64,000 nucleotides of DNA from a virus (taxonomy: Duplodnaviria; Caudoviricetes), in the IMG/VR virus record IMGVR_UViG_3300050491_000011; one strand, written 5' to 3'. The notes under the pieces were generated by a model that saw only the letters and a list, made by a program, of their open reading frames with translations, was not told the DNA's origin and did not search any database. The position numbers and the translations under genes were made by a program. Position 1 is the stretch's first letter. Every line of letters starts with the position of its first letter. This document shows positions 57,866-57,972 of this stretch, piece after piece.

Positions 57866-57972
57866 GGCAAGATGGCCTCTGCGAAGATGGCTGGAGCATA
57901 CTCTAGAAGAGTACCTTAACTAGTGCAGTTAAGGGTCTAACGACGGCTGAGGTTCGATCCCTCGTCTTGTCT
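57866..57972 (+). ncRNA. tRNA-like RNA with two hairpins replacing the anticodon loop
   Basis: GGCAAGA/TCTTGTC acceptor; TGAGG-TTCGATC-CCTCG T arm; TACTC-TAGAA-GAGTA and CCTTAACT/AGTTAAGG; no CCA. Confidence 0.6.

What the first reader, a model, noticed from the sequence alone, without database searches (positions are those of the whole stretch)
57866..57972. Fourth family member: T-loop-like pentaloop plus 8-bp stem in place of anticodon
Seen: 7-bp acceptor, T8-G9, GCC/GGC D-like arm, TGGA/TCTA stem, TACTC-TAGAA-GAGTA (U...A pentaloop fits a T-loop motif), CCTTAACT/AGTTAAGG, canonical T arm; CCA is not encoded. Inference: the most reduced version of the inner module.
Basis: partly seen in the sequence, partly recalled or inferred. 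Interest (0 to 1): 0.65.

Follow-up and report, generated by a model that had tools for sequence, protein, structure and literature searches.

The report
Phage tRNA-shaped RNA with branched body
A giant (phiKZ-like) phage carries a conserved 107-base gene for an RNA that keeps the top half of a tRNA but has a small bundle of hairpins where the anticodon arm should be. It cannot read codons, and I found it in no RNA database or paper I searched.

Summary
At 57866-57972 (+) there is a 7-bp acceptor stem, U8-G9, a 3-bp D-type stem, two inner hairpins, a canonical T arm flush with the acceptor, a U discriminator and no CCA. It is the last RNA of the array, 13 nt before an intrinsic terminator.

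It is a real gene under selection. I found five sequence variants in at least seven contigs of related phages. The hairpin loops and the D loop never change. Changes in the D stem and hairpin 1 are compensatory. In the most distant contig the element is 92% identical while its flanks are 70-76% identical.

Two details do not hold:
An alternative (third hairpin plus a 3-bp closing helix) covaries, but with three lineages the junction stays unresolved.
- The "family" link is by architecture only; there is no sequence homology to the other array members.

It is not a decoding tRNA. Rfam gives no hit at E<=10, ARAGORN gives none at default settings, and relaxed "intron" calls disagree between variants.

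Most likely it is a non-decoding tRNA mimic, matured like a tRNA, that binds a partner off the ribosome. That function is inferred. The scan has not noted this element on other DNA.

The parts
57856..57865 (+). 5' spacer CAACAUACAU between the preceding structured RNA and G1; presumed RNase P leader
   Evidence: Invariant in all full-length copies. Its role as a leader is inferred.
57866..57872 (+). Acceptor stem, 5' strand (GGCAAGA), followed by U8-G9 (57873-57874)
   Evidence: Pairs with 57965-57971. 7 bp including G2.U71, invariant in all copies.
57875..57891 (+). D-type arm: 3-bp stem GCC/GGC around an 11-nt loop UCUGCGAAGAU. The loop has no GG and may close into UCU/AGA plus a GCGA tetraloop with U23 bulged.
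   Evidence: Pairs 10-26 (G-C/A-U) and 11-25 (C-G/U-A) change on both sides. The loop is invariant. The extension is predicted by MFE and RNAalifold but has no variation to test it.
57892..57898 (+). Linker UGGA plus the 5' strand of proposed helix X (GCA, 31-33).
   Evidence: 32-81 is C-G and becomes U-A in G004; G31-C82 is invariant. The alternative 27-30/71-74 is broken in G004. Unresolved.
57899..57913 (+). Hairpin 1: UACUC-UAGAA-GAGUA (5 bp, invariant pentaloop)
   Evidence: Pair 34-48 is U-A in three variants and C-G in two.
57915..57933 (+). Hairpin 2: CUUAACU-AGUGC-AGUUAAG (7 bp, invariant pentaloop)
   Evidence: Invariant except U56 to C in L025, which opens the closing pair. The eighth pair C49-G69 is not conserved.
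57935..57947 (+). Proposed hairpin 3 (GUC-UAAC-GAC, 70-79) and the 3' strand of helix X (80-82).
   Evidence: 70-79 goes G-C to A-U and 71-78 goes U-A to C-G. Two cells are unpaired. This is the most variable stretch of the RNA.
57948..57964 (+). Canonical T arm UGAGG-UUCGAUC-CCUCG
   Evidence: Sequence read directly. Invariant except loop position 60, C or U. It is one of 12 plus-strand matches to GTTCRANNC between 55854 and 57960, 11 of them in the RNAs of the array.
57965..57972 (+). Acceptor 3' strand UCUUGUC plus discriminator U; no CCA follows in the window
57986..58011 (+). Intrinsic terminator GCCCGGC-AUUCC-GCCGGGC-UUUU that ends the RNA array
   Evidence: Conserved in all related contigs.

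Best explanation
This is a gene for a stable, non-decoding, tRNA-shaped RNA of about 107 nt. It is the last unit of a polycistronic array of tRNAs and tRNA look-alikes in an uncultured phiKZ-like jumbo phage.

The intact acceptor/T-arm stack and U8 make it a likely substrate for the host's tRNA maturation machinery: RNase P at G1, 3' trimming, and perhaps CCA addition. These steps would release and stabilise it. This is inferred, not shown.

The anticodon arm and variable loop are replaced by a compact branched module. It consists of hairpin 1, hairpin 2 and either a short stem or a third hairpin closed by a 3-bp helix. Its loops never vary, so it is the likely working surface.

I think it acts off the ribosome as a binding RNA. 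The most likely role is a decoy or sponge for a host factor that recognises tRNA top halves or acceptor ends, such as a tRNA-targeting defence nuclease or nucleotidyltransferase toxin. This function is also inferred.

Shown: the structure elements, their conservation, the lack of any anticodon arm, and the genomic context.
For: - Homologues: five sequence variants in IMG/VR and metagenome contigs.
- Compensatory changes in the D stem (two pairs) and hairpin 1 (one pair). 98% of cells are paired against 34-51% when partners are slid.
- All hairpin loops, the acceptor and the T arm are invariant.
- In contig L025 the element is 91.6% identical to the window. The two preceding RNAs are 76% and 71% identical, and the downstream gene, which reads as a different gene, aligns at only 53%.
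- The block 'rod RNA + middle RNA + this element + terminator' is kept in L025, where ARAGORN finds no canonical tRNA in 7.6 kb. Its retention therefore does not depend on neighbouring decoding tRNAs.
- Not a tRNA by any caller: Rfam gives nothing at E<=10 and ARAGORN default gives none.
- ARAGORN in relaxed intron mode finds the start at G1 and the 3' end within one base in all four variants, so the frame is tRNA-like. It calls Stop(tta), Leu(taa), Leu(aag) and Lys(ctt), so no anticodon is conserved.
- A terminator lies 13 nt downstream.
Against: - No expression, processing or binding data exist. The phage is uncultured, and blastn found no match in 50,697 phage records.
- The D loop lacks G18G19, so a normal tRNA elbow may not form. 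RNase P and CCA-enzyme recognition are assumed from the acceptor/T minihelix alone.
- The family is narrow (84% identity or more, three informative lineages). Covariation is statistically weak: 35 of 171 pairs of variable columns look compensatory from shared ancestry alone.
- No partner protein is evident. No CCA-adding enzyme, RtcB, RNA ligase or Ro60 was found in the 75%-complete record.
- The gene read downstream differs between the window and L025.
- The decoy role is a guess by analogy.
Confidence: 0.5

Rival explanations
1. Cis-acting 3' end module. The tRNA-like fold serves only as a processing or stability signal (tRNA punctuation) that defines and protects the 3' end of the polycistronic RNA array. 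It has no function of its own in trans.
For: It is always the last unit, 13-15 nt before the terminator, in every contig. The acceptor/T minihelix, the part that RNase P needs, is the most strictly conserved part.
Against: A terminator hairpin already protects the 3' end. The D loop and the loops of hairpins 1 and 2 are not needed for RNase P, yet they never vary. In relative G003 the array ends with the preceding 'rod' RNA and the same terminator, without this element, so the array does not need it for termination.
Confidence: 0.15
2. Chargeable, non-ribosomal tRNA mimic. After CCA addition it is aminoacylated through acceptor-end determinants (U73, G1-C72, G2.U71, C3-G70; the nearest pattern is Cys-type). 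It then serves as an amino-acid donor, or as a titrator of a synthetase or EF-Tu.
For: The acceptor stem and discriminator are invariant, including the G2.U wobble. Irregular polycistronic tRNAs from soil metatranscriptomes were charged by HisRS in vitro yet not used in translation (PMC5389517). That U73 alone lets CysRS charge acceptor helices is my recollection, not tested here.
Against: CCA is not encoded, and in relatives it is out of register. No anticodon is available for synthetases that need one. There is no G3.U70 and no G-1. The AlaRS-like ORF noted elsewhere in this genome is only a 13.8-bit sub-threshold Pfam hit.
Confidence: 0.12
3. Decaying tRNA pseudogene: a type II tRNA whose anticodon region was scrambled by an insertion and which is no longer used.
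For: The 3-bp D stem with an 11-nt loop is type II-like. The next best hits of the element's covariance model are the phages' type II tRNA-Tyr genes (25 and 20 bits). The CCA is lost in the window. The element is absent from the relative G003.
Against: Compensatory changes keep the stems, the hairpin loops and D loop are invariant, and the element is much better conserved than its flanks in L025. A pseudogene would accumulate changes evenly.
Confidence: 0.07
4. A decoding tRNA, for example tRNA-Leu(UAA), interrupted by a 31-nt intron that is removed by an unknown pathway.
For: The spliced loop would read CUUAAGG with U33.
Against: The call changes with the variant (Stop, Leu-taa, Leu-aag, Lys) and with the intron position. 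The required anticodon stem UGGAG/GUCUA keeps only two pairs in the G004 lineage. From general knowledge, bacterial tRNA introns are group I ribozymes of more than 200 nt, and no 31-nt splicing system is known in bacteria or phages. No RtcB or RNA ligase was found in the record.
Confidence: 0.03

Closest known systems
Bacteriophage T4 species 1 and species 2 stable RNAs (rnaC, rnaD) in the T4 tRNA gene cluster
   Same: Small stable RNAs encoded among phage tRNA genes and co-transcribed with them. They have tRNA-like terminal structure that lets the tRNA processing machinery release them. They have no decoding role and their function is still unknown.
   Different: There is no sequence relationship that I could test, because no T4 sequence was compared here. 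The host phage group is different (phiKZ-like, not T4-like). This RNA has a full acceptor/D/T frame with a branched insert, and it does not encode CCA.
Type II (long-variable-arm) bacterial tRNAs such as tRNA-Tyr, Ser and Leu
   Same: 7-bp acceptor, U8, 3-bp D stem with an 11-nt D loop, 5-bp T stem with a UUCGAUY loop, and total length above 85 nt. The phages' own tRNA-Tyr genes are the best non-self hits of the element's model.
   Different: No 5-bp anticodon stem with a 7-nt loop, no G18G19, no Rfam tRNA score at all, and two or three extra hairpins that branch from where the anticodon stem should be.
YrlA, the tRNA-like Y RNA of bacteria and mycobacteriophages (Rfam RF02553)
   Same: A non-decoding RNA with a tRNA-like module, found in phages. 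Another member of this same array gives a sub-threshold YrlA hit (43 bits, 56715-56839).
   Different: In YrlA the RNA ends lie in the Ro-binding stem on the anticodon side. Here the ends form the acceptor stem. There is no YrlA hit on this element and no Ro60/TROVE gene in the record.
Virus- or lncRNA-derived tRNA-like small RNAs that are processed and CCA-tailed but not charged (gammaherpesvirus 68 TMER vtRNAs; mascRNA from MALAT1; abstracts seen, details from my own knowledge)
   Same: The tRNA top half is used as a handle for RNase P/RNase Z processing and CCA addition, while the anticodon arm is degenerate.
   Different: Those are eukaryotic systems. Their bodies are shortened cloverleaves, not a branched multi-hairpin insert.
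Polycistrons of irregular tRNAs from soil metatranscriptomes (Mukai et al. 2017, PMC5389517)
   Same: Arrays of odd tRNA-like RNAs from soil samples. Some were charged in vitro but not used in translation.
   Different: Those described keep an anticodon arm (8/4 or 7/5 forms, some with an extra loop). None with a branched body is described in the main text, and no supplementary file is held for this paper, so those figures could not be checked.

Membership tests
Canonical tRNA (Rfam RF00005) | 7-bp acceptor stem stacked on a 5-bp T stem, with a UUCRANY T loop and G53-C61 | tested here: met
   Read from the sequence. Invariant in all copies.
Canonical tRNA (Rfam RF00005) | D arm with G18G19 that locks the elbow to the T loop | tested here: not met
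   A 3-bp stem is supported by covariation, but the loop UCUGCGAAGAU has no GG and can close into a GNRA-capped hairpin.
Canonical tRNA (Rfam RF00005) | 5-bp anticodon stem with a 7-nt loop, U33 and a conserved anticodon | tested here: not met
   Replaced by 2-3 hairpins. ARAGORN relaxed calls give four different 'anticodons' in four variants.
Canonical tRNA (Rfam RF00005) | Scores above the family threshold | tested here: not met
   No RF00005 match at E<=10, none in the genome search at E<=1, and none with ARAGORN default.
Canonical tRNA (Rfam RF00005) | 3' CCA, encoded or added, and aminoacylation | not testable with these tools
   Not encoded in the window. An out-of-register CCA is present in relatives. 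Addition and charging need experiments.
   Seven conserved pairs plus the AGUGC loop. The eighth pair is not conserved.
   UAGAA fits U-N-N-R-A and is invariant. But it is a 5-nt loop without spacer nucleotides, RNAalifold pairs U39-A43, and there is no 3D test.
   17 of 20 cells are paired, with no compensatory change, and the stem is broken in G004. The competing hairpin 3 plus helix X has 25 of 30 cells paired and three covarying pairs. But chance covariation is common in this small set.
   Model R1 scores 57308-57416 at 8.4 bits and 57457-57578 at 7.1 bits. The array's tRNA genes at 55801, 55894 and 56954 score 13-18 bits.
YrlA / Y RNA (RF02553) | Ends in a Ro-binding stem, a tRNA-like module at the far end, and a partner Ro60 (TROVE) protein | tested here: not met
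   No RF02553 hit on the element. Its ends form the acceptor stem. No TROVE gene in the record (the record is 75% complete).
tmRNA | tRNA-Ala-like domain with G3.U70 plus a tag reading frame | tested here: not met
   ARAGORN tmRNA mode finds nothing. The wobble is at 2:71, not 3:70.
tRNA with a group I intron (e.g. tRNA-Leu UAA) | Self-splicing intron of more than 200 nt in the anticodon loop | tested here: not met
   The insert is about 31-50 nt, there is no intron family hit in Rfam, and the exon 'anticodon stem' is not conserved.
Stable RNAs of phage tRNA clusters (T4 species 1/2 type) | Encoded inside a phage tRNA cluster, on the same strand, and released by tRNA-processing enzymes | tested here: inconclusive
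   Location and strand are met. Processing is not testable here, and no T4 sequence was compared.

The most novel reading that the evidence does not exclude
The element is one component of a previously undescribed phage RNA toolkit. In this reading the conserved trio (rod RNA, 130-nt three-way-junction RNA and this branched tRNA mimic) borrows the host's tRNA maturation enzymes to make stable RNAs. These then neutralise tRNA-directed immunity, or re-route a tRNA-handling enzyme, in nucleus-forming jumbo phages. This member would present an acceptor end on a body that cannot enter the ribosome.
Probability: 0.2. Interest if true: 0.8.

Novelty: new variant of a known kind. Interest (0 to 1): 0.5.

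Why it matters
Phage tRNA genes are now seen as part of the arms race with tRNA-cleaving bacterial defences (PMC10264068, PMC13056530). Non-decoding tRNA look-alikes in phage tRNA clusters have stayed unexplained since the T4 species 1 and 2 RNAs (from my own knowledge).

This element is a clean, compact example. It has an intact acceptor/T frame, an unmistakably non-decoding body with invariant loops, and conservation independent of neighbouring true tRNAs. If it is a decoy or adaptor for a tRNA-binding factor, it offers a small, synthesisable probe to find that factor. It would also show a new way for nucleus-forming jumbo phages to interfere with host RNA biology.

If it turns out to be only a processing handle, it is a minor curiosity.

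Tried and rejected
- Cultured-phage homologues: blastn near and distant against 50,697 phage records found none.
- Downstream protein as an anchor: no relatives in IMG/VR by peptide patterns.
- Structure-agnostic DNA patterns:
  - One search gave three chance hits in coding DNA.
  - One search was mis-specified by me (5 N instead of 7) and wasted a scan.
  - Searches gave only known copies plus chance hits.
  - The genome-contig scan gave one chance hit.
- Covariance model R1 on nine related phage records found the element only in G000 and G004. With filters off on the G003 array it found only tRNAs.
- Intron-containing tRNA-Leu reading: rejected.
- Homology to other array members: rejected.
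- RNA-RNA complementarity between this element and the two preceding RNAs: no conserved site.
- Phage-encoded partners: no CCA-adding enzyme, RtcB, RNA ligase or TROVE in the record. The AlaRS-like ORF flagged by another first-stage note is a 13.8-bit sub-threshold hit.
- Literature: five full-text searches found no description of such an RNA. A sixth search errored and was not rerun. The phiKZ Grad-seq ncRNAs are unrelated UTR fragments.

Full report
**Context**

- The window is part of a 188-kb IMG/VR virus record estimated 75% complete.
- Its large virion protein matches phiKZ-like jumbo phages of Burkholderia, Pseudomonas and Xanthomonas at about 35% identity. It is therefore an uncultured, distant member of the phiKZ-like group.
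- Between 55.7 and 58.0 kb, all on the + strand, lie three genes that ARAGORN and Rfam call tRNAs (Asn, a 'Ser' GCU and Asp) and several tRNA-like RNAs that they do not call. A PL7 alginate lyase gene is embedded among them.
- The finding is the last RNA of this array. A strong intrinsic terminator (57986-58004 plus a U run) follows 13 nt after it.

**The observation**

With position 1 = 57866, the sequence reads as follows:
- acceptor GGCAAGA (1-7) pairing with UCUUGUC (100-106), with one G2.U wobble
- U8-G9
- GCC (10-12) and GGC (24-26) around the 11-nt loop UCUGCGAAGAU
- UACUC-UAGAA-GAGUA (34-48)
- CUUAACU-AGUGC-AGUUAAG (50-68)
- T arm UGAGG-UUCGAUC-CCUCG (83-99), abutting the acceptor strand
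- discriminator U107, then ACUAAAC, so no CCA

The single-sequence fold is only modestly better than shuffles (z = -2.05), so the case rests on comparison.

**Relatives**

- blastn found nothing in cultured phages.
- Through the DNA polymerase I collected nine related IMG/VR records. The closest, G004 (94% polymerase identity), has the element at 84% identity.
- Pattern scans of IMG/VR and the JGI metagenome collection added more copies.
- In all there are five distinct sequences: window = L021; G004 = L019 = L024; L023; L025; and L022, which is cut at its 5' end.
- A covariance model built from the first two found no copy in the other eight related records. It also found none in the array of G003 (74% polymerase identity) with filters off.
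- In G003 the array ends with the preceding 'rod' RNA followed by the same terminator.
- The family is therefore real but narrow.

**Selection**

- Nineteen of the 107 columns vary.
- The D loop, both hairpin loops, the acceptor stem and the T arm do not vary, apart from T-loop position 60.
- Three pairs change on both sides and stay paired: 10-26 (G-C/A-U), 11-25 (C-G/U-A) and 34-48 (U-A/C-G).
- 98% of cells pair in register, against 34-51% when the 3' partners are slid.
- In L025 the element is 91.6% identical to the window. The two RNAs before it are 76% and 71% identical, and the downstream gene, which reads as a different gene, aligns at only 53%.
- L025 keeps the block 'rod RNA, middle RNA, this element, terminator'. 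ARAGORN finds no canonical tRNA in the 7.6 kb fetched around it.
- This argues against a decaying pseudogene, and against retention by hitch-hiking with decoding tRNAs.

**What does not hold**

(1) The connecting stem UGGA/UCUA (27-30/71-74)
- It has no compensatory change.
- In the G004 lineage two of its pairs become C.A and A.C; in L025 one becomes A.C.
- RNAalifold and the window's MFE structure suggest a third small hairpin instead (70-72/77-79: GUC-UAAC-GAC). I add a 3-bp closing helix (31-33/80-82).
- In that model 70-79 (G-C/A-U), 71-78 (U-A/C-G) and 32-81 (C-G/U-A) covary. This raises the count of doubly changed pairs from 3 to 6.
- I derived this model from the same sequences. A control shows that 35 of 171 pairs of variable columns look compensatory simply because the lineage-specific changes co-occur.
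- The fraction of paired cells is about equal for the two models (17/20 against 25/30), and nearest-neighbour energies do not separate them.
- The topology of the junction is therefore open. What is secure is a branched, multi-hairpin body.

(2) The eighth pair of hairpin 2 (C49-G69) is A.G in two lineages.

(3) The D 'loop' has no GG. It can zip into UCU/AGA capped by a GCGA tetraloop with U23 bulged. A normal D-loop/T-loop elbow is therefore doubtful. There is no variation to test this.

(4) Relatives have CCA one or two nucleotides out of register after the discriminator. The window has lost it. An encoded CCA is evidently not under selection.

(5) Family membership
- Model R1 scores the other odd RNAs of the array at 7-8 bits, below the array's tRNA genes at 13-18 bits.
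- Its best non-self hits are the type II tRNA-Tyr genes of G004 and G003, at 25 and 20 bits.
- The resemblance to the other members is one of design, not demonstrable descent.

**Not a decoding tRNA**

- Rfam gives no match of any family at E<=10, even when only 266 nt are searched.
- ARAGORN at default settings is silent.
- With introns allowed and thresholds lowered, ARAGORN finds the start at G1 and the 3' end within one base in all four variants. That is a useful independent sign that the acceptor/D/T frame is tRNA-like.
- However, it calls Stop(tta), Leu(taa), Leu(aag) and Lys(ctt), with different intron positions.
- The 'exon' anticodon stem of the Leu(UAA) reading is destroyed in G004.
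- No RtcB or RNA ligase was found in the record.

**Mechanism**

Shown:
- an RNA gene with an intact acceptor/T stack
- a covarying 3-bp D stem
- a branched body with invariant loops
- a position at the end of a tRNA operon

Inferred from established knowledge of tRNA maturation (RNase P and the CCA-adding enzyme act mainly on the acceptor/T minihelix):
- the RNA is cut out at G1, trimmed, perhaps CCA-tailed, and thereby stabilised

Inferred by analogy:
- It works off the ribosome through its invariant loops, most plausibly by binding a host factor that handles tRNA top halves or acceptor ends.
- Phage tRNAs are already implicated in countering tRNA-cleaving defences (PMC10264068; PMC13056530). 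A decoy is therefore the most economical guess.

I put about 0.85 on 'real, selected, non-decoding tRNA-shaped RNA'. I put 0.5 on the fuller statement that includes tRNA-like maturation and a trans-acting binding role. The specific anti-defence role gets about 0.2.

Rivals, in order of my confidence:
- a purely cis-acting 3' end or processing module (0.15)
- a chargeable non-ribosomal mimic (0.12)
- a pseudogene (0.07)
- an intron-bearing tRNA (0.03)

**Comparison with known systems**

- The closest in kind are the T4 species 1 and 2 RNAs of the T4 tRNA cluster. This comes from my own knowledge; the one search aimed at them retrieved no paper on them, and a second errored.
- Also close in kind are tRNA-like, CCA-tailed, non-charged small RNAs such as herpesvirus TMER vtRNAs and mascRNA.
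- It is not a YrlA. The topology is opposite, there is no model hit, and no Ro60 gene was found.
- The irregular tRNA polycistrons of soil metatranscriptomes (PMC5389517) are similar in spirit, but those described keep an anticodon arm.
- I found no description of this RNA in Rfam 15 or in five full-text searches.
- The scan's own index holds no look-alike on other DNA.

**Limits**

- There are only three informative lineages.
- There is no cultured phage and there are no expression data.
The 255-kb contig that encodes a 69%-identical homologue of the downstream protein (P0003) therefore could not be examined.
- One IMG/VR scan was lost to a mis-typed pattern.

Noticed in passing
window 57728-57857 (+): The stretch between the 'rod' RNA and this element is itself a closed structured RNA of about 130 nt. 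It has a terminal stem UGACUCC/GGAGUCA and three arms, with six pairs changed on both sides across four phage contigs. It has no T loop, and Rfam gives no hit at E<=10. It travels with the rod RNA and this element as a trio, including in contig L025, which has no canonical tRNA nearby.
   Followed up: partly
L018 2017-2102 (G003, IMGVR_UViG_3300023083_000001): ARAGORN calls an 86-nt 'tRNA-Cys(GCA)' with a 3-bp D stem, an 11-nt D loop, a 13-nt variable region, U73 and an encoded CCA. This is a type II-like cysteine tRNA in a related jumbo phage. It is reminiscent of the unusual Cys tRNAs of Mukai et al. 2017 (PMC5389517).
   Followed up: no
window 57301-57420 versus L017 2034-2119 (G004) and L023 2296-2379: The array is modular. 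Where G004 and L023 carry a normal type II tRNA-Tyr(GUA), this window carries a different, non-canonical tRNA-like RNA behind the same upstream sequence. The window has no tRNA-Tyr at all.
   Followed up: no
window 57712-57730 and 57972-57985; L018 2395-2425: The trailer after this element in relatives, (C)ACCAAACAUAG, repeats the CCAAACAU that follows the rod RNA. In G003 the rod is followed directly by CCAAACAACAUAGAC and the terminator. This suggests that the middle RNA plus this element were inserted or lost by recombination at this short repeat.
   Followed up: partly
G000:C1:10499-10903 (22.3 kb before the window): The 134-aa ORF flagged elsewhere as an AlaRS-like fragment gives only a 13.8-bit, E = 0.02 match to Pfam tRNA-synt_2c, whose cut-off is 30.3 bits. 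By this test it is not a supported tRNA-binding partner.
   Followed up: partly
window 58043-58558 (+): The gene just after the terminator encodes a 171-aa protein with a P-loop-like GKS motif and no Pfam match. In G004 its homologue is only 68% identical although the RNAs upstream are 84-95% identical. In L025 the gene read at this position is a different one. The array borders are mosaic.
   Followed up: no
L036 2098-2180 (IMGVR_UViG_3300020049_009636): An unrelated viral contig has a tRNA-like sequence with acceptor CCCAAGA/UCUUGGG and a T arm nearly identical to this element's, but with a different body. I read it as a chance or convergent match.
   Followed up: no
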